From the UHGV virus genome UHGV-0248791: DNA of 15,864 nucleotides. One strand, written 5' to 3'. The stretch is from a virus. This document shows positions 1 to 9,479 of the stretch, in pieces (the stretch's first letter is position 1; every line of letters starts with the position of its first letter). Position numbers and translations under genes: made by a program. The notes beneath the pieces were generated by a model, which had not been told where the DNA came from, did not search any database, and saw only the letters and a list, made by a program, of their open reading frames with translations.

Positions 1-6
1 AGATAA

Positions 7-83
7 TGGACCGCCATCGAGGACTCGAACCCCGCGCAACCAGCTTCGAAGGCTGGCGCTCTATCCTGATGAGCTAATGGCGG
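7..83 (-). tRNA. tRNA-Arg (anticodon UCG), phage-borne
   Basis: Reverse complement of 7..83 folds as a 77-nt cloverleaf: acceptor CCGCCAT/ATGGCGG, D-arm GCTC-ATCAGGATA-GAGC, anticodon arm CCAGC-CTTCGAA-GCTGG (anticodon UCG), T-arm CGGGG-TTCGAGT-CCTCG, discriminator T, encoded CCA. Confidence 0.75.
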
Positions 84-90
84 TATGTGA

Positions 91-162
91 TGGTGGCCCT
101 TGCTGGATTTGAACCAGCGACCTGGCGATTATGAGTCGCTCTCACCACTGAGCTAAAGGGCC
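91..162 (-). tRNA. tRNA with CAU anticodon (Ile2/Met type, ileZ-like), with a shortened D-arm
   Basis: Reverse complement of 91..162: acceptor GGCCCTT/AAGGGCC, T-arm GCTGG-TTCAAAT-CCAGC, anticodon loop CTCATAA (CAU), discriminator A, encoded CCA. Only 72 nt because the D-arm is short (3-bp stem, 6-nt loop) and 27:43 is an A-C mismatch, so it may be a degenerate copy. Confidence 0.6.
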
Positions 163-171
163 GGGAGCCGC

Positions 172-200
172 ATAATAACGACGCGTAATTAATTCTTCAA
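172..200 (-). promoter_or_regulatory. Candidate sigma70 promoter for the tRNA cluster
   Basis: On the minus strand: -35 TTGAAG (200..195), 17-nt spacer, -10 TATTAT (177..172), then 9 nt to the 5' end of the CAU tRNA at 162. Confidence 0.45.
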
Positions 201-202
201 TA

Positions 203-313
203 TCATCCGTTCTGGCTGACTAAATCCTGTACTTCCCGAACCGTCTGCTCAAAACATTCAGTCTCCAGCTCAACGCCAATTGCACGACGCCCGAGCGCCA
301 GTGCTGCTTTGAC
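203..313 (-). pseudogene. Possible 3' remnant of a DNA methyltransferase gene (C-terminal ~35 codons, no start codon)
   Basis: Minus-strand frame translates ...KAALALGRRAIGVELETECFEQTVREVQDLVSQNG*, resembling the C-terminal A-x-x-L-G-R-x-x-I-G-x-E motif of N6/N4 DNA methyltransferases. The frame is open upstream without any ATG and runs through a terminator hairpin, consistent with a truncated gene. Confidence 0.25.
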
Positions 314-324
314 GCTACGGACAT

Positions 325-353
325 AAAAAAGCCAGCCACTGGGGGAGGCTGGC
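325..353 (-). terminator. Rho-independent terminator (minus strand)
   Basis: GCCAGCC (331-337) pairs with GGCTGGC (347-353) around a 9-nt loop; on the minus strand the hairpin is followed by six U (A-run 325-330 on plus). Confidence 0.5.
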
Positions 354-536
354 GAAACTCGTAGAGCAAAAGTGTTGTTACACTAACTTCGTCACAGGGT
401 TATCCTGCAATACTCAAAATACACAATATTTACAAAACTAATAGTATACAAGGCGATCTTTAAGATTTTGTTATAAATTATTGCCTTTCTCCTCTTTCCA
501 TGAGCTTTCTGGGTAGCCACAGAATTCCGGGTACAG

Positions 537-562
537 AAAAACCCGCTCAGCGGCGGGTTTAA
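537..562 (-). terminator. GC-rich hairpin, weak terminator candidate
   Basis: AAACCCGC/GCGGGTTT stem (539-546 with 553-560), 6-nt loop. The U-tract on the minus strand is only 4 nt, so function is uncertain. Confidence 0.25.
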
Positions 563-737
563 GCTGTGTGACGAAGTAACCACTCTTAACAGCATAACCA
601 ATTTTTTACGTACGTAAACCACTAAATGATATTTGCGAGAATGCTACCGAGTATTGAAAACACCACTACAAATACATAAGCAAATCTCAACAAATAACCA
701 ACAAATAATTTCCAGTGTTATTTTTAGCCGGTTTAAA

Positions 738-768
738 TTGAACCTTCAAATTATAGAGCACTTATAAA
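738..768 (+). promoter_or_regulatory. Candidate promoter in the AT-rich region upstream of the porin gene
   Basis: TTGAAC (738-743), 17-18 nt spacer, TTATAA/TATAAA (762-768). Several alternative hexamers exist in this AT-rich stretch, so the assignment is tentative. Confidence 0.25.
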
Positions 769-987
769 TAACAGCCGTTAATATAAATTGGCTAATAGAT
801 TTATTTTTATTCAGCCAAGAGCCATGAATAGGATTCGATAGAAAAAAGTTCAGATAAAAATAGAGATCTACTTCACAAATCAAACGAGAAACCAAAACTT
901 ACATCTTGAAATAATCACATTGATTAGATGAATATTTATCGCGCAGTGACATCATTTTTTAATAATAGTTCAAAAAAAGGGCTCACG

Positions 988-2070
988 ATGAAAAAATTAA
1001 CAGTGGCAATTTCTGCTGTAGCTGCATCAGTACTGATGGCGATGTCTGCTCAGGCAGCTGAAATTTATAATAAAGACAGTAACAAGCTGGATCTGTACGG
1101 GAAAGTTAATGCTAAGCACTATTTCTCCTCTAATGATGCAGATGATGGTGATACTACTTATGCCCGTCTTGGCTTCAAAGGTGAAACCCAAATCAACGAT
1201 CAACTGACTGGTTTCGGTCAGTGGGAATATGAATTCAAAGGCAACCGCGCTGAATCTCAAGGTTCCTCCAAAGATAAAACCCGTCTTGCCTTCGCTGGCC
1301 TGAAATTCGGTGACTACGGCTCAATCGATTACGGCCGTAACTACGGTGTAGCATACGACATCGGTGCGTGGACTGACGTTCTGCCAGAATTCGGTGGCGA
1401 TACCTGGACCCAAACAGATGTGTTCATGACTGGTCGCACCACTGGTGTTGCAACTTATCGTAACAACGACTTCTTTGGTCTGGTTGATGGTCTGAACTTT
1501 GCTGCTCAGTATCAGGGTAAAAATGACCGCACTGACGTAACTGAAGCTAATGGTGATGGTTTCGGTTTCTCCACTACTTATGAGTATGAAGGATTCGGTG
1601 TAGGTGCAACCTATGCTAAATCTGACCGCACTAATAATCAGGTTATCTACGGTAACAACAGCCTGAATGCATCTGGTCAAAATGCTGAAGTATGGGCAGC
1701 TGGTCTGAAATATGATGCGAACAACATCTATCTGGCTACCACCTATTCTGAAACCCAGAACATGACTGTTTTTGGTAATAACCATATTGCCAACAAAGCA
1801 CAAAACTTCGAAGTAGTTGCACAATATCAGTTCGACTTCGGTCTGCGTCCGTCCGTTGCTTACCTGCAATCTAAAGGAAAAGACTTGGGTGCGTGGGGTG
1901 ATCAGGACCTGGTTGAATATATTGATGTAGGTGCAACCTATTACTTCAACAAAAATATGTCCACTTTTGTTGATTACAAAATCAACCTGATTGATAAGAG
2001 CGATTTCACGAAAGCATCTGGCGTTGCTACCGATGATATCGTTGCTGTAGGTATGGTTTACCAGTTCTAA
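988..2070 (+). CDS. nmpC: General porin of the OmpC/OmpF/PhoE family (NmpC-type prophage porin), intact
   Basis: Start at ATG 988 ([23 protein letters not shown] signal peptide, then mature N-terminus AEIYNKD typical of enterobacterial porins) with AAAGGG Shine-Dalgarno upstream. Aromatic C-terminal ...VGMVYQF. The ORF-track start at 928 adds 20 codons ahead of the signal peptide and is unlikely. Confidence 0.9.
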
Positions 2071-2074
2071 TTTG

Positions 2075-2119
2075 ATTACTAAAAGATATGTTGCGGGAGG
2101 CTTTGCCTCCCCAACATAT
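2075..2119 (-). terminator. Long hairpin with minus-strand U-tract downstream of Q (tR'-like candidate)
   Basis: ATATGTTG-c-GGGAGGC TTT GCCTCCC-CAACATAT gives a 15-bp stem with one bulge (2086-2119); on the minus strand it is followed by CUUUUAGUAAU. Confidence 0.4.
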
Positions 2120-2206
2120 AAGTGGCTCCCTCAAGCCACTTCCTTTAGGAGCACAACCTTGCTTCTAACTATATAAACCTTCTGTTATATATTACCCTTT
2201 ATTTTT

Positions 2207-2231
2207 GGGAGCGTTGCAACGCCCCATTTTT
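2207..2231 (+). terminator. Candidate rho-independent terminator for the porin gene
   Basis: GGGAGCGT...ACGCCCC hairpin (2207-2225) followed by ATTTTT on the plus strand, 137 bp after the porin stop. Confidence 0.45.
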
Positions 2232-2258
2232 AATAATTTTTAGTAAACAATTGGCATA

Positions 2259-2642
2259 TTAATTAGAGTTATTAACAACGATATCCATCTCTAACCGGAT
2301 ATCTAATGCCATTAACATCCCTTCAATTATGCCCTCAGCCTTCTGTAACCTTTTCCCGATATAACCATCAGAGCAGCAATGCTTACCTGCCAGTGACATG
2401 AATGTCATACCGACTACATAATAATCTACTAATAAATCGTGCAAATCGCTGTTGTTCTTTTTCAGACGGGCCATGCACCCGCAAATAATCATCGCGTCAT
2501 CGTCACAACATTGCGGGCGAGATTTTACTTTTGAAGTAATTAATCCCTTAAAACCGGCGGCAATGGACGACCAGGTCACATCTTCATGATTATTAGCCGC
2601 CCACGCTCCCCAGCGTTCGAGAACCATCTGAATATCACGCAT
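2259..2642 (-). CDS. Late-gene antiterminator Q (phage 21/DLP12 QuuD-like)
   Basis: 127-aa product [22 protein letters not shown]... with Cys-rich zinc-binding segment ([13 protein letters not shown]...HCCSDG). Start taken at ATG 2642 with GGAGA Shine-Dalgarno; the track's longer ORF begins at a TTG. Confidence 0.8.
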
Positions 2643-2659
2643 CAACTTTCTCCACAAAA

Positions 2660-3655
2660 TCAGGACAGCACACCAATCGCCAGCGCGCGATCGATAAAAC
2701 GAAATATCAGCTCCAGTTGGGAACCATACTTCTCTTCAAATGCCACGGTATCCGCATGTAGTTCGTCATGGTGTTTTCTGCACAAAGGCAACACAAAAAG
2801 GTCATGCGCTTTTGTACCCATTCCACCCTGACCATGACCAATCAGGTGATGAGGATCGTCGGCTGGCTTACCACAACATGCACACGGCTGCGTCTTAACC
2901 CAGCGCGTGTACTTTTCATTAACCCAGCGACGACGTTTGGGGCGTAACATAAAAGACTCCGGCGACTCCGGATCCACTTTCAGCGCCAGCACCTTTTTCG
3001 CCTTATCCCGGATGATGCTGGTGGCAGGAACCGAAGGCACAAGGTCACCTTCCCGGGTGACAGACGGCACAACAGGCTTCGGTAATCTCAGTGCCTTACG
3101 GGCTGCACTTTCCGGTAAGGCATCCGCCAGGTCATTACGAACCAGCCACCAGCACAGTTCCGGCATTGTCACAACGTGGCTGTCATCAAAACCGAGATCA
3201 CGACGGACTACGGACAACACCCAGCGGGCACAGTTATCCGTTGCCATTGATTCCAGACGTTCCGTGAACTGATCGCGAAGCAGGTTATCGCAGTGCCAGC
3301 ACAGACGGATTGCGCCCGGCGCGTGTCGCATTGTGGTCATGTTCTCGCTGTGCCATCCGGAATGAGGCCACTGGCAGCCTTTTTCACGAAGTAACCAGCT
3401 CTCAAGGCATTCCACGCCACCAGCACGACGGATCACCGCCTCATGGCGGAACACGGCCCGAACGGCAGGATCATCCGCCAGCGGTTGTGATGCTGCCGGA
3501 ACGGCACCACTGGCAAAAGATGAATAACGTTCCGGCTCAGGCTCCAGCAGGACACGCCCCTGCATAAACAGGGGCATCAGCTCTGAACCGGGTCTGAACA
3601 AGACGATCCCCATACGCGGGGCAATTTCAGGGGTCAGCAGTGCTCTCACGGTCAC
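2660..3655 (-). CDS. DUF968/NinG-like nin-region protein with C-terminal Cys/His (HNH-like, zinc-binding) motif
   Basis: C-terminal QPCACCGKP...[19 protein letters not shown]...[12 protein letters not shown]. The start is uncertain: GTG at 3655 or GTG at 3649, the latter with a GAGG Shine-Dalgarno 5 nt upstream. Confidence 0.6.
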
Positions 3656-3701
3656 CTCAGCGAACGGTATTGCATGAACGCAGGAGAAAAAAATTCAGCC
3701 A

Positions 3702-3959
3702 TCACGCAGTAAACTCCTTCACCAGCGTTTCAAACTGGCTTACCTGTCCTTCCAGTTCCGCCACGCAATCCACCAGCTCATCCACCGCCTTTTGTGTGCG
3801 GTGTTTTGCCTGCAGCAGATCACGAAGCGCCGGAGTAAGCTGCTTGCGGAGCGTATCTTTTTTCACGCTCGTTTTTTCCATCTGTTCAGCACAACGAAGC
3901 ATCTCCTGCGCCTGCCGACGAAGTTGTTCCGGTGAAACAGTGATTGTTCTGTTGTTCAA
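3702..3959 (-). CDS. Hypothetical small protein (85 aa, predicted coiled coil)
   Basis: ORF joined to the DnaB-like gene stop (TTGA overlap at 3956-3959); TTG start with GGAG 9 nt upstream. Internal ATG starts have poor Shine-Dalgarno sequences. Confidence 0.45.
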   Translation of the reverse strand: MNNRTITVSPEQLRRQAQEMLRCAEQMEKTSVKKDTLRKQLTPALRDLLQAKHRTQKAVDELVDCVAELEGQVSQFETLVKEFTA

Positions 3960-5356
3960 AATAAACGCTCCGTTTTACTGCCCGACATGCGGTTATTGCT
4001 GTATCTGCGCGGATTGCCCGGCGTCATGGGTGTGGAAAGAACCCGGGCACTCTCCTGGTCCACAGGCAGAAAATGTCCGTTATGAAAACGCCGGTAAATG
4101 GTCCCGAGTGTGCCATTACGCTGTTTCGTGATGTTGATTTCTGCTATGCCTCTGGCCTGTGTATCCGGGTTATACACCTCATCCCTGTAAAGCATCAGAA
4201 TGATGTCGGCATCAGCCTCTATTTCCCCGGAGTTTTTCAGGTCTGAGTTCATGGGACGTTTATTGGGTCTGGATTCCACGCCTCGGGAGAGCTGGCTCAG
4301 AGCAATCAGCGGGAAACCGCCGGATTTTGCCAGGCTTTTAAGTCCCTTTGAGATTTCCCCCACAGCAAGGTCGTGACGCCCCGTGCTGCGGGTTTTAATC
4401 AGACCGAGGTAATCGACCACCACCAGCGCCGTTTCCGGGTGTTTCATCCGGTGGTGCTTCGTGGTTGCACATATCTCATCAATGGTCAGGTTTGCCTGAT
4501 CCACCATCCAGATATTACGCCCCGTCATTCGTCCCACGCCCTGCGAGAAACGCGCCCAGTCTTCATCTTCAAAACGGGCAACAGACTTAAGACGGGATAC
4601 CGGCATTCCACCGGCAGCAGACACCATACGTTCACCAATCTGGATGTTCGCCATCTCCATGGTGAACAGAAGCACGCCATGCCCCTGCTCAGTCACCTTG
4701 TCGATGATGTCCAGCGCAAGTTCGGTTTTCCCCATCGAAGGACGGGCGGCAATGAATACCAGGTCACCGGGCTCCATACCGCCCGTTTTTGCGTCCAGTT
4801 CATCAATACCGGTCATCAGCGCCCTGGATTTCTCCAGTCCCTGATTGCGGCATTCAACACGGTCGACCACTTCCGGAAGGACATCATCAATGTGAACCGG
4901 CTGAATGACGCCCTTTCCGGTCGACAGTGAGGCCATCATGTTCTGCACATCCTTCAGGGCATCCTCGGCTGCTTCACAGGTATACGCATCACGTAAATTC
5001 TGTAATGCTTCAGTCAGTGTTTTTTCTGCATCGCGCAGTGCGGCATTGCGCCGCAACGCTGCGACATAGTGCTCCAGTGAAGACTTCACCCAGGTTTTGC
5101 GTCCGGTGTCGGTAATCACCGGGGCAAGTTCCGGCATCTCATTGCACAGCAGTACGGGGTCAATGACGCCGGATATGCGAGCCTGTCTGCAAATCCCCGC
5201 GTAAATATCCCGGTACTGACGCACAAAAAATACATCCGCCGGAAGTGTGGCCAGAATATCCATCACTTCCGGATCGGCCCCACGCAGAAAAAACGCACCG
5301 ATGACAGCGCCTTCCAGGTCATCGTTACGCCATGCCGGGGTGTTCTGGCTGGTCAT
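3956..5356 (-). CDS. Replicative DNA helicase, DnaB family (phage-encoded)
   Basis: 466 aa with Walker A GxxxxGKT (IAARPSMGKTELALD) and DnaB C-terminal motifs (SQLSRGVESRPNKRPMNSDLKNSGEIEADADIILMLYRDEVY). ATG 5356 with GGAGG Shine-Dalgarno; ATGA overlap with the upstream gene. Confidence 0.9.
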   Translation of the reverse strand: MTSQNTPAWRNDDLEGAVIGAFFLRGADPEVMDILATLPADVFFVRQYRDIYAGICRQARISGVIDPVLLCNEMPELAPVITDTGRKTWVKSSLEHYVAALRRNAALRDAEKTLTEALQNLRDAYTCEAAEDALKDVQNMMASLSTGKGVIQPVHIDDVLPEVVDRVECRNQGLEKSRALMTGIDELDAKTGGMEPGDLVFIAARPSMGKTELALDIIDKVTEQGHGVLLFTMEMANIQIGERMVSAAGGMPVSRLKSVARFEDEDWARFSQGVGRMTGRNIWMVDQANLTIDEICATTKHHRMKHPETALVVVDYLGLIKTRSTGRHDLAVGEISKGLKSLAKSGGFPLIALSQLSRGVESRPNKRPMNSDLKNSGEIEADADIILMLYRDEVYNPDTQARGIAEINITKQRNGTLGTIYRRFHNGHFLPVDQESARVLSTPMTPGNPRRYSNNRMSGSKTERLF

Positions 5357-6252
5357 GCGGCAACACCTCCGATACGAGAACGGTAGCTGGGCCAGTTAAA
5401 CGACAACCAGTTGCGCCCGCCATCGGTGATCCTGTCGGCAATCCGGGGACTGATGAACGCCCACAATTCTTCCGGTGAAAGGTTGCTGATCAGGATAGTT
5501 GGCAAAATACCCTCATACCGGGCATTGATAATTTCCTGCAAAATGGCCATTTCAGCCGCACTGCCAAACTGAACGCCGACTTCGTCGACAATCAGCAAAT
5601 CCAGTGACGCATAATGCTCAATGACGTCATCCGCTGTTTTTTCACTGTCATTCCGCCAGCAGTTTTTCACAGCCCGGGTAAGGCGCATCACGTCGGTGAT
5701 CTCCACACTGGCCAGATAGTTACGGATGATGTGTTTTGCCATTGATACCGCCAGATGATTTTTCCCGGTACCGCAACTGCCGGTCATAACAAGACTGGTA
5801 CCGTTCTCCAGCATATCTGGCCAGTTCTCCGCATAGCGGCGACAGGCCGCAAGATTTCTGGCTGCGTCAGGATTAACCTCCAGATAATTATCAAACTCGC
5901 AGTCCCGAAAACGCAGAGCAATTCCGGCGTTATCAGTCAGTTCTTCCGCCTTGAGGGACGACAGTTCCATGGTCAAATCACTGGCCTCAGCGATCAAGCA
6001 GTCAGGGCAGCATGAAATTTTTTCTCTGTCCTCGCCATTACGATCGATCCACACCAGTATATGCGTACGATATTTACCGTGTTTTTCGCAATATCCGCGA
6101 CCTTCACGCATCAGGCAGGAACGATAAGGCCATGGCTTTTCGCCCTTCTGAGCAAATGCAATCTCTGCCCGTAACTCATCCATTTCTGCCCGTAACTCAT
6201 CCATTCGCGCCTGTAGTCTTGTTTGTTTCTCACGTTGGTCAATCGTCATCAT
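5353..6252 (-). CDS. DnaC/IstB-like AAA+ helicase loader with N-terminal Cys/His cluster
   Basis: Walker A GSCGTGKNHLAVSMA and Walker B LLIVDEVG. Start taken at ATG 6252 (GAGGTG 7 nt upstream) rather than the track's GTG at 6261. The N-terminus has a duplicated heptapeptide MDELRAE. Confidence 0.85.
   Translation of the reverse strand: MMTIDQREKQTRLQARMDELRAEMDELRAEIAFAQKGEKPWPYRSCLMREGRGYCEKHGKYRTHILVWIDRNGEDREKISCCPDCLIAEASDLTMELSSLKAEELTDNAGIALRFRDCEFDNYLEVNPDAARNLAACRRYAENWPDMLENGTSLVMTGSCGTGKNHLAVSMAKHIIRNYLASVEITDVMRLTRAVKNCWRNDSEKTADDVIEHYASLDLLIVDEVGVQFGSAAEMAILQEIINARYEGILPTILISNLSPEELWAFISPRIADRITDGGRNWLSFNWPSYRSRIGGVAA
6164..6205. repeat. Perfect 21-bp tandem duplication (2 copies) inside the DnaC-like gene
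   Basis: tctgcccgtaactcatccatt at 6164-6184 and again at 6185-6205; in frame, encoding MDELRAE twice. Confidence 0.9.
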
Positions 6253-6262
6253 CGCTGTCACC

Positions 6263-7255
6263 TCAGAATGTCAATTTGTTACTGGATTTACCGAATTTGT
6301 CAGACATGGCTCCCAGGCCAGCCAGGACATCGACCTGTCGCTGTCGCCCACCTCCGTGAGCGGCTGGCTGTTGCCAGTAATCTTCGAAGTGACGATCGGG
6401 TCCAAAGAACGTCGCAGCCTGCTTCACGAACTGTGTGCCGGTATTTCCTGTAGCACGTACCCAGGCGGCATACCGCTTCACGCCATCAAGCATGGTCTCC
6501 GGTTTTATTCCCTCCCTGATACGGGCTTTCCAGGCTTTGAAGGCTGCTGACTTGGAATTGCCACCAGCACGTTTGGGATATTCCTGCCAGGCCTGTTCAA
6601 ATTCCGGTGAATATTCCTGTCGGGCAGAACGCGCTGGCGCAGACGCGTCAGCGGATGCATCAATAGTGTTTTTAGTCTCCGTTGTAATCTCTGTAGTAAT
6701 CTCTGTATTTGTATCAACATTCGGCGTATCCCCTGTTCCGTTATGACGTCGGGGGGTGTTCCGTTTTAACGTAATAGCTGTATCGCTGATTGCATTATTG
6801 CTGTTACTTTCTGGCGAAACAGAAGAAGGTGTGGTGATGGCCGCAATTGCCTGTGGGTTGATCCCGACAAACAAAATATTGCTGCATTTCACCCCATCGA
6901 GCATTTCCACCGTGCGTAAATCCAGAGTAATAAACCCTGCATCGCGCAGACGCTTCAGCGCATCTGCGGTTTCCCTTTTCCCGAAACCAAACTGCTCAGC
7001 AAACGCCTGGTAGCTTCTTTGCAGTTTGTCGCCCTGAAAACGCTTGCGATATCCCAGCAACGCTCCGGTGTGCTCATCCCTGACCTCTGTCGGGCGGTAC
7101 CAGTAAACGATCTCTGAAAGCAGAGCGATAGCCGTCGCATCCGGACGCCCACTGGGTAGTCGAATATATTTCCACCAGTTCGCAGGTGTAACATTGCCGG
7201 AAATATTAATTTGACCAATAGCCATAACTTCCGGTGTGGGGGCGTAACGGCTCAT
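6263..7255 (-). CDS. Replication initiator / replisome organiser (lambda O-like role)
   Basis: 330 aa, directly upstream of the DnaC- and DnaB-like genes with ATGA overlap to the preceding ORF. Low-complexity central linker (TEITTEITTE, DASADASA) between N- and C-terminal domains; AAGGAGG Shine-Dalgarno before ATG 7255. Confidence 0.65.
   Translation of the reverse strand: MSRYAPTPEVMAIGQINISGNVTPANWWKYIRLPSGRPDATAIALLSEIVYWYRPTEVRDEHTGALLGYRKRFQGDKLQRSYQAFAEQFGFGKRETADALKRLRDAGFITLDLRTVEMLDGVKCSNILFVGINPQAIAAITTPSSVSPESNSNNAISDTAITLKRNTPRRHNGTGDTPNVDTNTEITTEITTETKNTIDASADASAPARSARQEYSPEFEQAWQEYPKRAGGNSKSAAFKAWKARIREGIKPETMLDGVKRYAAWVRATGNTGTQFVKQAATFFGPDRHFEDYWQQPAAHGGGRQRQVDVLAGLGAMSDKFGKSSNKLTF
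6675..6707. repeat. Iteron-like 12-bp direct repeats within the O-like gene (candidate replication origin)
   Basis: GTAATCTCTGTA at 6684-6695 and 6696-6707, preceded by the degenerate copy TCTCCGTTGTA (6676-6686). Lambda ori iterons also lie inside the O gene linker. Confidence 0.4.
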
Positions 7256-7963: not shown

Positions 7964-8820
7964 GGGCGAACCTCCTTGTCAGAACCATTCAGCCTGGAAT
8001 CAACAAGTGCAGCGCCAAAAACAGCATCACCAACACGGTCGTACAGTTTGCTAGCCAGCGGAGATTCAACGGCCTTAAGCATTGGATAAAGCTGGCTTGT
8101 CCAGATTTGATGGATTTCACGCAAATGCAGGTATACGCCTCTGGCGTTTCGTGCGACAGCTGACATATCAGACGCATCGGCACCTGATAAACTCTTCTCC
8201 ATCAGGTTAAAGGCGTTGATGTATGCCTCTTTGAACCGGGCAGCACGTTTACCAGTGAAGCCCATGGCAAGAAACGCAAAACCGTCGCGGGTGATTTGGT
8301 AACAAGGGAGCTTGCGTGTACCACCGTTCGGTTGATTTACCGAAATCGATGTCTCCGCAAAATTGCGGGCACAAAACTCAGGGGAACAATCCAGAGTGCG
8401 GATCTTTTTCAGCACATCGTCATGACGCTTGGAGAAGAAGTTGGCAACAGCCAAAGAAGTGGTAACGGCCTGGCCGTTGTCAATGGTGATTTCAGGTTGA
8501 GTGAGGGCTGGGATCGTAGCCATGATGGCAGCCTCCGTTGACAGTGAAAAACTTCCACCACCGGAAACGCCAATTTCACTGGTGGTGAACTGGACGGGGT
8601 TGGCGTAACCGGCGTCAACGGAGACCGGCGCACCTTTCGGTGCCCCCGCCCAGCCCACCATAATCTGGATGTGAGCAAATGCGGACGATAAAAAAGACGC
8701 TGGCGCGTCATACATCGCCGTTGACAATTTCAGGACGCCAATCCCGGCACCCGCTTTATAAGGTGCGGAGACAGTGTAACGTCCCGGAATTGCAGAATCA
8801 ATATGCTGGTGGCGGATCAT
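7960..8820 (-). CDS. Rha-family phage regulatory protein (paralog A); alternative internal start at 8523 would give a 187-aa product
   Basis: Rha-like motifs AVTTSLAVANFFSKRHDDVLKKIRTL...ITRDGFAFLAMGFTGKRAARFKEAYINAFNLME. Two nested starts: ATG 8820 (GGGAGG Shine-Dalgarno, ATGA coupling to the upstream gene) and ATG 8523 (GGAGG Shine-Dalgarno), the latter sitting right at the start of the Rha domain. Confidence 0.6.
   Translation of the reverse strand: MIRHQHIDSAIPGRYTVSAPYKAGAGIGVLKLSTAMYDAPASFLSSAFAHIQIMVGWAGAPKGAPVSVDAGYANPVQFTTSEIGVSGGGSFSLSTEAAIMATIPALTQPEITIDNGQAVTTSLAVANFFSKRHDDVLKKIRTLDCSPEFCARNFAETSISVNQPNGGTRKLPCYQITRDGFAFLAMGFTGKRAARFKEAYINAFNLMEKSLSGADASDMSAVARNARGVYLHLREIHQIWTSQLYPMLKAVESPLASKLYDRVGDAVFGAALVDSRLNGSDKEVRP
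8524..8820 (-). promoter_or_regulatory. Conserved structured leader, copy A (candidate cis-regulatory RNA; may also be translated as an N-terminal extension)
   Basis: Transcript sense: site 1 GTCAACGG (8725..8718), terminator-like GACGC-GCCA-GCGTC plus U6 (8709..8690), hairpin GCACC-GAAA-GGTGC (8643..8630), site 2 CUCCGUUGAC (8623..8614), pseudoknot-type helices ACGCCAA/TTGGCGT interleaved with CACCACC/GGTGGTG (8606..8556), site 3 GUCAACGGAG overlapping the Shine-Dalgarno (8542..8533). Confidence 0.4.
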
Positions 8821-9479
8821 AGGTGCACCTCCCGTTGATTACGACGGAACGCGGAGTGACCCTGGACGGTTTCAGCCTCATGGAATGCTTCAATACAGCT
8901 CTCGTAGTACCGCATTGTGCGCAGACTTAACCCAAGCTGAAGCATCATCAGACCATCAAGGGTGATGTAATAACCACGCAGGGAGTCACCGTAGATGTGA
9001 TAAGTACCCGGTATGAAATTGCGGGTAAAAAACCCGCGTGAGCAGTTCAGATACTCGATTTTGTCAACGATGTTCTGGTGCATGCGCTTGAAATGGCAGG
9101 CAACATGCAGGGAGAAAATAACGGCCTTGCCGTTGACGACTTCGATTTTTAGGAATGGGGAAGTTAGGACAGTAGCCATGATGGCAGCCTCCGTATGCAA
9201 TGGATAACTTCCACCACCGGAGCTGCGAAACTCATGGGTGGTGAACTGAACAGGGTTCGCAGTACCGGCGCATACGGAAACCGGCGAGCCTTTCGGCTCC
9301 CCTGCCCAGCCCACCATAATTCTGGCGTGCGTGAGCGCGGACGATAAAAAAGACGCTGGCGCGTCATATATCGCCGTATGCAATTCCGGGCTGCGACCCC
9401 CGGCACCCGCTTTATAAGGTGCGGAGACAGTGTAACGTCCCGAAATTGCAGAATCAATATTTGGTCTTGAAATGATCAT
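8817..9479 (-). CDS. Rha-family phage regulatory protein (diverged paralog B); alternative internal start at 9179 would give a 120-aa product
   Basis: Degenerate Rha-like region AVIFSLHVACHFKRMHQNIVDKI...ITLDGLMML. ATG 9479 lacks a clear Shine-Dalgarno, whereas internal ATG 9179 has GGAGG 8 nt upstream within a 20-nt block identical to copy A. Confidence 0.5.
   Translation of the reverse strand: MIISRPNIDSAISGRYTVSAPYKAGAGGRSPELHTAIYDAPASFLSSALTHARIMVGWAGEPKGSPVSVCAGTANPVQFTTHEFRSSGGGSYPLHTEAAIMATVLTSPFLKIEVVNGKAVIFSLHVACHFKRMHQNIVDKIEYLNCSRGFFTRNFIPGTYHIYGDSLRGYYITLDGLMMLQLGLSLRTMRYYESCIEAFHEAETVQGHSAFRRNQREVHL
9180..9479 (-). promoter_or_regulatory. Conserved structured leader, copy B (same architecture as copy A with compensatory changes)
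   Basis: Site 1 GCATACGG (9381..9374), identical GACGC-GCCA-GCGTC plus U6, hairpin GAGCC-GAAA-GGCTC (9299..9286), site 2 UUCCGUAUGC (9279..9270), helices CTGCGAA/TTCGCAG interleaved with CACCACC/GGTGGTG, site 3 GCAUACGGAG overlapping the Shine-Dalgarno (9198..9189). Confidence 0.4.

What the first reader, a model, noticed from the sequence alone, without database searches (positions are those of the whole stretch)
1..200. Phage-borne tRNA cluster with its own promoter, matching the ileZ-argN-argO arrangement found downstream of Q in Stx-type phages
A CAU-anticodon tRNA (Ile2/Met type) followed by a UCG tRNA-Arg on the late strand, with a good sigma70 promoter immediately upstream, matches the tRNA order seen downstream of Q in Stx-converting and related lambdoid phages. 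There the next element is often a third tRNA-Arg and then cargo (stx or other morons) before the lysis genes. The window starts 6 nt after the tRNA-Arg, so the neighbouring cargo is just outside. The CAU tRNA is only 72 nt with a short D-arm, so its functionality is uncertain.
Basis: partly seen in the sequence, partly recalled or inferred. Interest (0 to 1): 0.45.

Follow-up and report, generated by a model that had tools for sequence, protein, structure and literature searches.

The report
Prophage tRNA cassette, one gene damaged
This is the well-known three-tRNA cassette (ileZ-argN-argO) with its own promoter that sits in front of the lysis genes of Shiga-toxin-type and related E. coli prophages; this copy is ordinary except that its first tRNA has a rare 4-base deletion that probably disables it.

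Summary
ARAGORN and Rfam both call a tRNA-Arg(UCG) at 7-83 and a CAU tRNA at 91-162, both on the minus strand. A TTGAAG-17-TATTAT promoter-like site lies at 200-172.

Bases 1-480 are 91% identical to Stx phages, where these genes are annotated ileZ and argN with a 'pT' tRNA promoter. In a genome that is 100% identical to the window over bases 1-1500, the DNA just left of the window holds:
- argO (UCU),
- a SASA/NanS-type esterase,
- holin, lysozyme and terminase.

That genome has no stx.

Three refinements:
- **The 72-nt CAU tRNA is a deletion allele.** It is an Ile2 (ileX-like) gene that has lost one unit of a GAGCGAGC tandem. Only 6 of 3062 E. coli records carry this allele, and its Rfam score falls from 72.5 to 58.2 bits. 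It is probably crippled.
- **The promoter is supported by conservation.** Its hexamers are kept in all 126 related loci, although the sequence upstream of them is unrelated between families. A published dRNA-seq start site exists at the homologous place.
- **Q is not adjacent.** A phage porin gene lies between Q and the late promoter. pR' maps to 591-618, followed by an StxS-like leader and tR' at 323-351.

The cassette is already known, so interest is low.

The parts
7..83 (-). argN-type tRNA-Arg, anticodon UCG, 77 nt, with CCA encoded. The cloverleaf is intact.
   Evidence: ARAGORN. Rfam tRNA 56.0 bits with no non-standard pairs. It differs from the Stx2-phage argN at 2 loop positions only. 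Annotated argN in the Stx2a_F723 and WGPS8 records.
91..162 (-). ileZ-type tRNA-Ile2 (anticodon CAU, ileX-like) carrying a 4-nt deletion. One GAGC of the tandem GAGCGAGC, which spans the 3' strand of the D stem, nucleotide 26 and the start of the anticodon stem, is missing. The gene is 72 nt instead of 76.
   Evidence: ARAGORN. Alignment to Stx2-phage ileZ and to K-12 ileX, metT and metU. Rfam scores 58.2 bits here against 72.5 for the intact gene. The allele is rare: 6 of 3062 E. coli records, and 7 IMG/VR loci against at least 120 intact.
172..200 (-). pT, the cassette's own sigma-70 promoter. The -35 TTGAAG is at 200-195, the spacer is 17 nt, and the -10 TATTAT is at 177-172. A G+C-rich 9-nt stretch follows before the tRNA 5' end.
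   Evidence: Consensus scan. Homologous to the annotated pT of phage 06-3462. The hexamers and spacing are conserved in 126 of 126 loci and 37 unique upstream sequences, while the sequence upstream of -35 is unrelated between families. A primary start site mapped by dRNA-seq upstream of the tRNAs in the Sakai Stx2 phage is reported in PMC7547250.
203..316 (-). C-terminal remnant of a DNA methyltransferase gene (a pseudogene). Its stop codon lies just before the -35 of pT.
   Evidence: PGAP annotates the identical sequence in B1-56 as 'site-specific DNA-methyltransferase, incomplete, missing N-terminus'. A similar small remnant is annotated in Stx2 phage 06-3462.
323..351 (-). tR'-type intrinsic terminator: a GCCAGCC/GGCUGGC hairpin followed by U6. 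It insulates the cassette from pR' in the lysogen.
   Evidence: Fold. 29 of 29 identical to, and aligned with, the annotated terminator of 06-3462 at L002 6329-6357. [quoted passage not shown] Equating that 3' end with this terminator is my inference from the matching distance, since the site lies about 258 nt downstream of pR' in 06-3462.
323..585 (-). Homologue of the pR'-tR' leader RNA (StxS-like, about 260 nt). It includes an internal hairpin at 537-562.
   Evidence: 217 of 260 identical to the Stx2-phage leader. The hairpin at 562-537 folds at -15.7 kcal/mol with z = -3.3.
591..618 (-). pR'-type late promoter (TTTACG-16-TATGCT), assigned by homology only.
   Evidence: It aligns end to end with the annotated pR' of phage 06-3462, L002 6593-6620. 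It matches only 8 of 12 consensus positions, so the consensus scan did not flag it.
988..2070 (+). Lc/NmpC/OmpD-type phage porin gene. It is a moron on the opposite strand, lying between Q and pR'.
   Evidence: 97-99% DNA identity to the porin region of phages PA-2 (lc), 434 and ev243. PGAP calls it 'porin OmpC'. It contains no AUA, CGA, CGG, AGA or AGG codons.
2259..2642 (-). Late antiterminator Q (QuuD type).
   Evidence: PGAP calls it 'antitermination protein QuuD' in B1-56 and CE10. 78% amino-acid identity to the Q of Stx2 phage 06-3462.

Best explanation
The feature is the ileZ-argN(-argO) tRNA cassette of a stx-negative lambdoid prophage of E. coli. It sits on the late strand, downstream of the late promoter pR' and its terminator tR', and upstream of an esterase gene and the lysis cassette.

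In the lysogen, transcription from pR' stops at tR' (323-351). The cassette is then transcribed from its own promoter pT (200-172). After induction, Q-modified RNA polymerase reads through tR' and through the tRNAs into the late genes, so the tRNAs are also made as part of the late transcript and cut out by RNase P and 3' processing.

The products add decoding capacity for codons that are rare in E. coli but commoner in prophage genes:
- AUA, read by Ile2 after lysidine modification of C34.
- CGA/CGG, read by Arg-UCG. From memory of the K-12 tRNA gene set, the host has no tRNA with this anticodon; this was not checked here.
- AGA/AGG, read by Arg-UCU, which lies just outside the window.

In this copy the first gene has lost 4 nt by slippage in a GAGCGAGC tandem. 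That removes either half of the D stem or three pairs of the anticodon stem, so ileZ is most likely inactive or badly impaired and only the Arg tRNAs work.

Shown here: the genes, their homology, their context, the conservation of the promoter and the rarity of the deletion. Taken from a paper: a start site for the tRNAs in a homologous phage. Inferred: expression in this prophage, the codon-supply role and the loss of ileZ function.
For: tRNA calls.

Homology: about 91% to annotated ileZ, argN and pT in Stx phages.

Left flank in the 100%-identical genome: argO(tct), SASA esterase, holin, lysozyme, terminase.

Context in about 125 related loci: Q lies upstream on the same strand; stx2AB lies at about +341 in roughly 10 loci; elsewhere the cassette is followed by the esterase, holin and lysozyme.

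Promoter: TTGNNN-16/17-TAT(T/C)AT ends 8-10 nt before the tRNA in 126 of 126 loci, and conservation collapses upstream of -35. A dRNA-seq start site is reported for the tRNAs (PMC7547250).

pR' and tR' were mapped by alignment and the hairpins fold.

Ile2 identity: the intact ileZ matches K-12 ileX closely and shares C4-G69, C5-G68 and A73 with it, whereas metT and metU have U4 and A5. PGAP calls the gene tRNA-Ile.

Codon use: AGA+AGG run at 9-13 per 1000 codons and AUA at 4-8 per 1000 in the prophage genes, against about 2 and 1.2 per 1000 in nine flanking host genes. In stx2AB, AUA is 37 per 1000, which is 68% of Ile codons.

Deletion: alignment; a loss of 14.3 bits on the Rfam model, with three anticodon-stem pairs lost; present in 6 of 3062 E. 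coli records; 7 IMG/VR loci against at least 120 intact.
Against: No expression data exist for this prophage.

The promoter matches only 9 of 12 consensus positions, and such matches are not enriched over shuffles.

The host baseline for codon use is small (2426 codons). AUA enrichment over the whole-genome E. coli average, about 4-5 per 1000 from memory, is modest outside stx.

The damaged ileZ still passes ARAGORN, Rfam and PGAP. A cloverleaf with a 3-bp D stem and a 4-bp anticodon stem can be drawn at -25.6 kcal/mol, against -29.0 for the intact cloverleaf. Loss of function is therefore not proven.

The left flank of the actual source genome was not seen. It is inferred from genomes identical over only the first 1500 bases.
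Confidence: 0.85

Rival explanations
1. The 72-nt CAU tRNA is still a working Ile2 tRNA with an unusual 3-bp D stem and no nucleotide 26, so the whole cassette is functional.
For: ARAGORN, Rfam (58 bits) and PGAP all still accept it. The ARAGORN-style fold keeps the G18-G19 loop, a CUC/GAG stem that retains the U12-A23-type pair, and the full anticodon arm. The allele persists in 6 complete genomes and 7 viral contigs on three different flank haplotypes.
Against: It occurs in 0.2% of E. coli records with this gene. It loses 14 bits against the tRNA model. Its minimum-energy fold has no 7-nt anticodon loop. Every other copy keeps the 76-nt form. The chromosomal ileX and, in at least one carrier genome, other copies of the probed ileZ segment (4 places in strain 15A) would relax selection on a dead copy. 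The allele of those other copies was not determined.
Confidence: 0.15
2. The tRNAs have no promoter of their own and are made only from the Q-dependent late transcript. On this view the TTGAAG-17-TATTAT site is a chance match.
For: The consensus match alone is not above chance. The cassette lies on the late strand downstream of pR'.
Against: The hexamers and spacing are kept in all 126 loci across four or more unrelated upstream sequence families. A primary start site for the tRNAs was mapped between tR' and stx2AB in the Sakai phage. Two terminators lie between pR' and the cassette.
Confidence: 0.07
3. It is a chromosomal tRNA locus that serves as a phage attachment site, so the tRNAs are host genes at a prophage border.
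For: Many prophages integrate next to tRNA genes (general knowledge).
Against: There are phage genes on both sides: Q and the porin upstream within the window, and argO, esterase, holin, lysozyme and terminase downstream in the identical genome. The integrase and host genes lie 16-18 kb away at the other end. The same cassette is present in isolated phage genomes.
Confidence: 0.01
4. The main benefit of the cassette is not supplying rare-codon tRNAs. Instead it replaces or evades host tRNAs that are attacked by anticodon nucleases (for example colicin D, which cuts tRNA-Arg), or it simply marks a recombination boundary between phage modules.
For: Arg-UCG is an anticodon that E. coli does not otherwise encode (own knowledge). 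Cassette composition is very fluid (cat-tcg-tct, cat-tct, cat-ttt-tgt-tcc and others). The cassette lies at mosaic junctions.
Against: Nothing here tests nuclease resistance. The three anticodons match the classic E. coli rare codons, which are enriched in prophage genes and in stx.
Confidence: 0.07

Closest known systems
ileZ-argN-argO tRNA cassette with pT of Stx-converting phages (933W / Sakai Sp5 type, e.g. Stx2a_F723, WGPS8, 06-3462)
   Same: Same genes in the same order on the late strand, with about 91% DNA identity over 480 nt. The promoter is at the same position, the methylase remnant, tR' and pR'-leader are the same upstream, and the SASA esterase and lysis genes are the same downstream.
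   Different: The nearest relatives have no stx between argO and the esterase. ileZ carries a 4-nt deletion. A porin gene is inserted between Q and pR'.
E. coli chromosomal ileX (tRNA-Ile2, CAU, lysidine-dependent)
   Same: The intact phage ileZ matches ileX at most positions. It has the same anticodon loop, the same C4-G69 and C5-G68 pairs, the same A73 and the same T arm apart from 1 nt. The -10 element lies about 9-10 nt before the mature 5' end with a G+C-rich stretch between.
   Different: A27-C43 replaces G27-U43. The promoter sequence is different. The window copy lacks 4 nt.
DLP12 / PA-2 / 434 late region (Q - nmpC/lc porin - late promoter - lysis genes)
   Same: Window 536-1500 is 97-99% identical to these phages. 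The Q is of QuuD type.
   Different: In phage 434 the holin follows the porin region directly, with no tRNA cassette, methylase remnant or esterase. The window is a mosaic whose junction lies at the hairpin at 537-562.

Membership tests
ileZ-argN-argO cassette of lambdoid/Stx prophages | First gene is a CAU-anticodon tRNA of Ile2 (ileX-like) type | tested here: met
   PGAP labels it tRNA-Ile. The copy carries a 4-nt deletion.
ileZ-argN-argO cassette of lambdoid/Stx prophages | Second gene is tRNA-Arg(UCG), 7 nt downstream | tested here: met
   It differs from the Stx2-phage argN at 2 loop positions.
ileZ-argN-argO cassette of lambdoid/Stx prophages | Third gene is tRNA-Arg(UCU) | not testable with these tools
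   It lies outside the window. It is present 13 nt after argN in the genome identical over 1-1500 and in 5 of 5 viral contigs of the same haplotype.
ileZ-argN-argO cassette of lambdoid/Stx prophages | Located on the late strand between pR'/tR' and the lysis genes | tested here: met
   pR' and tR' homologues are at 591-618 and 323-351. The lysis genes lie downstream in relatives.
ileZ-argN-argO cassette of lambdoid/Stx prophages | Own promoter (pT) directly upstream of ileZ | tested here: met
   The sequence element is present and conserved. Activity is shown only in a homologous phage (PMC7547250).
Functional tRNA-Ile2 (TilS/IleRS substrate) | CAU anticodon, C4-G69 and C5-G68 acceptor pairs, A73 (determinants recalled from the TilS and IleRS literature) | tested here: met
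   Alignment with ileX, metT and metU.
Functional tRNA-Ile2 (TilS/IleRS substrate) | Canonical cloverleaf: 4-bp D stem, nucleotide 26, 5-bp anticodon stem with a 7-nt loop | tested here: not met
   The 4-nt deletion leaves either a 3-bp D stem with no nucleotide 26 (ARAGORN) or a 2-bp anticodon stem (Rfam alignment). The minimum-energy fold lacks a 7-nt anticodon loop.
Functional tRNA-Ile2 (TilS/IleRS substrate) | Lysidine formation and charging with isoleucine | not testable with these tools
   Needs tRNA-seq, mass spectrometry and aminoacylation assays.
Stx-converting phage | stxAB operon directly downstream of the tRNA cassette | tested here: inconclusive
   This lies outside the window. 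It is absent in all close relatives of this haplotype, where the esterase starts at +736. It is present at about +341 in other loci.
Chromosomal tRNA attachment site | Host genes on one side and integrase next to the tRNA | tested here: not met
   There are phage genes on both sides, and the integrase is 16-18 kb away.

The most novel reading that the evidence does not exclude
The GAGCGAGC tandem inside ileZ may be a slippage hotspot that repeatedly turns the phage Ile2 tRNA off, and possibly back on. Alternatively the 72-nt product may be a working tRNA with a non-canonical core. The deletion allele occurs on three different flank haplotypes, and each haplotype also has intact counterparts. 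That pattern is compatible with recurrence, but equally with a single event spread by recombination.
Probability: 0.06. Interest if true: 0.35.

Novelty: already known. Interest (0 to 1): 0.12.

Why it matters
It matters little on its own. The cassette has long been annotated in Stx-phage records as ileZ, argN and argO with a putative tRNA promoter pT. A copy of the probed ileZ segment is present in 3051 of 5426 complete E. coli genomes.

The useful points are practical:
- Automatic annotation labels the 72-nt gene as a normal tRNA-Ile or tRNA-Met, although it is a deletion allele.
- The window shows clearly how a porin moron sits between Q and the late promoter.
- Cassette content varies widely between prophages, and decayed tRNA genes are common.

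Tried and rejected
- **Literature searches** for ileZ, argN and argO, and for 933W tRNA genes, found nothing relevant in the held library. The 933W genome paper could not be opened under the PMC id I tried from memory. The only experimental statement found about the tRNA promoter is one sentence in PMC7547250.
- **The consensus promoter and terminator scan** was uninformative. Promoter-like sites are not enriched, and it missed both hairpin terminators and pR'. I relied on homology, conservation and folding instead.
- **Minimum-energy folding** of single tRNAs is a weak test. Even the intact ileZ does not fold into a cloverleaf as its minimum-energy structure, so the energies are only indicative.
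- **pR' directly downstream of Q** (2060-2360): that region does not align with the Stx-phage pR' leader, whereas 300-625 does. I rejected this placement.
- **The species-representative genome scan** gave only 7 hits, all Escherichia or Shigella apart from two doubtful MAG contigs. It says little beyond the host range.
- **One origin or several for the deletion** could not be decided.

Full report
**What is in the sequence.** ARAGORN reports two tRNA genes in the window, both on the minus strand. They are tRNA-Arg (anticodon tcg) at 7-83 and a CAT-anticodon tRNA at 91-162, whose anticodon starts at position 30 rather than the usual 34. The Rfam tRNA model scores them 56.0 and 58.2 bits against a gathering score of 29. 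The consensus scan finds TTGAAG-17-TATTAT at 200-172 on the minus strand, ending 9 nt before the first tRNA. That scan found 4 such sites in 2.8 kb where shuffles give 6.7, so the match by itself proves nothing.

**Identity of the cassette.** Window 1-480 matches 361 phage records, nearly all of them Stx1- or Stx2-converting phages, at about 91% identity. Where those records are annotated, the genes are called ileZ (tRNA-Ile) and argN (tRNA-Arg). Phage 06-3462 (L002) annotates the following series on one strand: pR', two terminators, a small methylase ORF, 'pT; putative tRNA promoter', ileZ, argN, a third tRNA-Arg, stx2AB, a large esterase-type gene and the holin. ARAGORN gives cat-tcg-tct for that locus.

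**What lies outside the window.** Window 1-1500 is 100% identical to the chromosome of E. coli B1-56 and 99.9% identical to two other complete genomes. In B1-56 the sequence to the left continues as follows:
- tRNA-Arg(tct), 13 nt after argN;
- a SASA-family carbohydrate esterase;
- a class II holin, lysozyme and lysis protein;
- terminase, then head and tail genes.

There is no stx. The integrase and host genes lie at the far end of the prophage. The best match to the whole window is only 87% coverage at 97% identity, so the source genome itself is not in the collection and this left flank is an inference from close relatives. Five IMG/VR contigs of the same haplotype also have cat-tcg-tct. 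In the two of them with enough downstream sequence, and in B1-56, the esterase starts at +736/+737.

**The 72-nt tRNA.** Alignment with the Stx2-phage ileZ shows that the window copy is identical except for the loss of four bases. The intact gene reads GGTGAGAGCGAGCGACTC and the window reads GGTGAGAGCGACTC, so one unit of the tandem GAGC-GAGC is missing. This is the pattern expected from replication slippage.

The intact 76-nt gene is a textbook cloverleaf and scores 72.5 bits. The window copy scores 58.2 bits. The covariance model places the gap at nucleotide 26 plus three pairs of the anticodon stem. ARAGORN instead shortens the D arm to 3 bp. Either way one helix of the core is damaged. The minimum-energy fold has no 7-nt anticodon loop. 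A forced cloverleaf is possible at -25.6 kcal/mol, against -29.0 for the intact gene.

The allele is rare:
- A 60-nt probe across the site matches 3062 E. coli records in 3051 of 5426 genomes. Only 6 records carry the deletion form, and 3055 align with the 4-nt gap.

The deletion is found on three flank haplotypes, each with intact counterparts. This means either recurrent slippage or spread by recombination, and I could not decide between them. Another paper reports decayed tRNA genes ('tRNA-pseudo') in the same cassette of stx2i prophages (PMC13641118). About 33 of the loci here have only a degenerate remnant where argN should be.

**Ile2 or Met.** The intact phage gene is close to K-12 ileX. 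It shares ileX's anticodon loop, the C4-G69 and C5-G68 pairs and A73, whereas the elongator genes metT and metU have U4 and A5 and differ throughout the stems. From my knowledge of the TilS and IleRS literature, those acceptor pairs are the determinants that separate tRNA-Ile2 from tRNA-Met. PGAP labels the gene tRNA-Ile. ARAGORN's 'Met' label merely reflects the unmodified anticodon.

**The promoter.** I oriented 126 loci on the tRNA strand and compared the 60-70 nt before ileZ, which gave 37 unique sequences. Every locus has TTGNNN, a 16- or 17-nt spacer and TATTAT (TATCAT in four loci), ending 8-10 nt before the mature 5' end. Per-column information peaks at the two hexamers and drops upstream of -35. 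There the sequences fall into unrelated families, such as GGATGAGA..., GTTTTTTA..., TTGAATGC... and CAAGGGC.... The cassette therefore travels together with this promoter. Sy et al. [quoted passage not shown] The promoter claim is thus supported by homology, conservation and an experiment in a relative, but not by data from this prophage.

**Upstream layout.** Q (QuuD type, 2259-2642, minus strand) shares 78% amino-acid identity with the Stx2-phage Q, but it lies 2.1 kb away. Between them, on the plus strand, is an Lc/NmpC/OmpD-type porin gene (988-2070) that is 97-99% identical to the porin region of phages PA-2, 434 and others.

The annotated pR' of phage 06-3462 aligns end to end with window 591-618 (TTTACG-16-TATGCT). 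Its tR' terminator aligns with 325-353. The stretch between them is 83% identical, 217 of 260 positions. The region next to Q (2060-2360) does not align with that leader. The order on the late strand is therefore:

1. Q
2. porin gene (opposite strand)
3. pR'
4. a leader of about 260 nt with a hairpin at 562-537
5. tR' at 351-323
6. methylase remnant at 316-203
7. pT
8. ileZ
9. argN

Both hairpins fold as expected. This leader is the homologue of the RNA called StxS in PMC7547250.

**How it most likely works.** In the lysogen, pR' transcripts end at tR', so the tRNAs depend on pT. After induction, Q-modified polymerase reads through tR' and the cassette into the esterase and lysis genes, adding tRNA precursor. 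These steps are inferred from the layout and from what is established for lambdoid late transcription.

The anticodons read AUA, CGA/CGG and, for argO, AGA/AGG. Counts per 1000 codons:

| Gene set | AGA+AGG | AUA |
|---|---|---|
| Window and B1-56 prophage genes | 9-13 | 4-8 |
| Nine host genes flanking the prophages (2426 codons) | about 2 | 1.2 |
| stx2AB | about 20 | 37 (68% of Ile codons) |

The porin gene has none of these five codons. The host sample is small, so this supports the codon-supply reading but does not prove it. With ileZ damaged, this prophage probably supplies only the Arg tRNAs. The chromosomal ileX, and possibly other prophage ileZ copies, could cover AUA; strain 15A has 4 places matching the probe, though the allele of those copies was not determined.

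**Comparison and verdict.** This is a member of a known, very common element. The exact ileZ core occurs only in Escherichia and Shigella among species-representative genomes, apart from two doubtful MAG contigs. Across loci the cassette varies in content: cat-tcg-tct is the most frequent, followed by cat-tct, cat-ttt-tgt-tcc, cat-tcg and cat alone. Nothing here is new in kind.

Noticed in passing
window 323-618 (-): This is a homologue of the Stx-phage late promoter pR' (591-618), the pR'-tR' leader RNA of about 260 nt (StxS-like, 83% identical) and tR' (323-351). It lies downstream of the porin gene rather than next to Q. No Rfam family matched it at gathering score.
   Followed up: partly
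window 8578-8766 and 9234-9422 (-): There are two copies each of C4 antisense RNA (83 and 81 bits) and isrK Hfq-binding RNA (62 and 59 bits). They lie in two 294-nt direct repeats (8511-8804 and 9167-9460) that are 82% identical and 656 nt apart, inside or next to Rha-family regulator ORFs. The relative CE10 appears to have one unit fewer. This looks like a duplicated P1-immI/Gifsy-type antirepressor control module.
   Followed up: partly
window 988-2070 (+): The Lc/NmpC-type porin moron has no AUA, CGA, CGG, AGA or AGG codons, unlike the surrounding prophage genes. That is consistent with high expression in the lysogen without any need for the phage tRNAs.
   Followed up: partly
window 536-562: This is a mosaic junction. 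To the right, the window is 97-99% identical to PA-2/434/DLP12-type phages. To the left, it is about 91% identical to Stx-type phages. The hairpin at 537-562 is shared by both groups and may be the crossover point.
   Followed up: partly
L008 and L009 (IMG/VR), about 80-170 nt after the ileZ start: In the cat-tct cassettes, the argN position holds a remnant that keeps the acceptor-stem ends but has an unrelated interior, and ARAGORN rejects it. About 33 loci have this form.
   Followed up: no
IMG/VR loci among L011-L130: 14 loci carry ileZ followed by tRNAs with anticodons ttt, tgt and tcc (Lys, Thr, Gly) instead of the two Arg genes, behind the same type of promoter.
   Followed up: no
L134 and L139 (genome contigs): The exact ileZ core occurs in MAG contigs labelled 'Proteobacteria bacterium' and 'uncultured Collinsella sp.'. 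These are probably mis-binned Escherichia prophage contigs.
   Followed up: no
window 2660-7255 (-): The replication and early region differs from B1-56 and resembles the CE10-type prophage: a DUF968 protein, a DnaB-type replicative helicase and an ATP-binding loader-like protein. The window is therefore a recombinant of at least three phage lineages.
   Followed up: no
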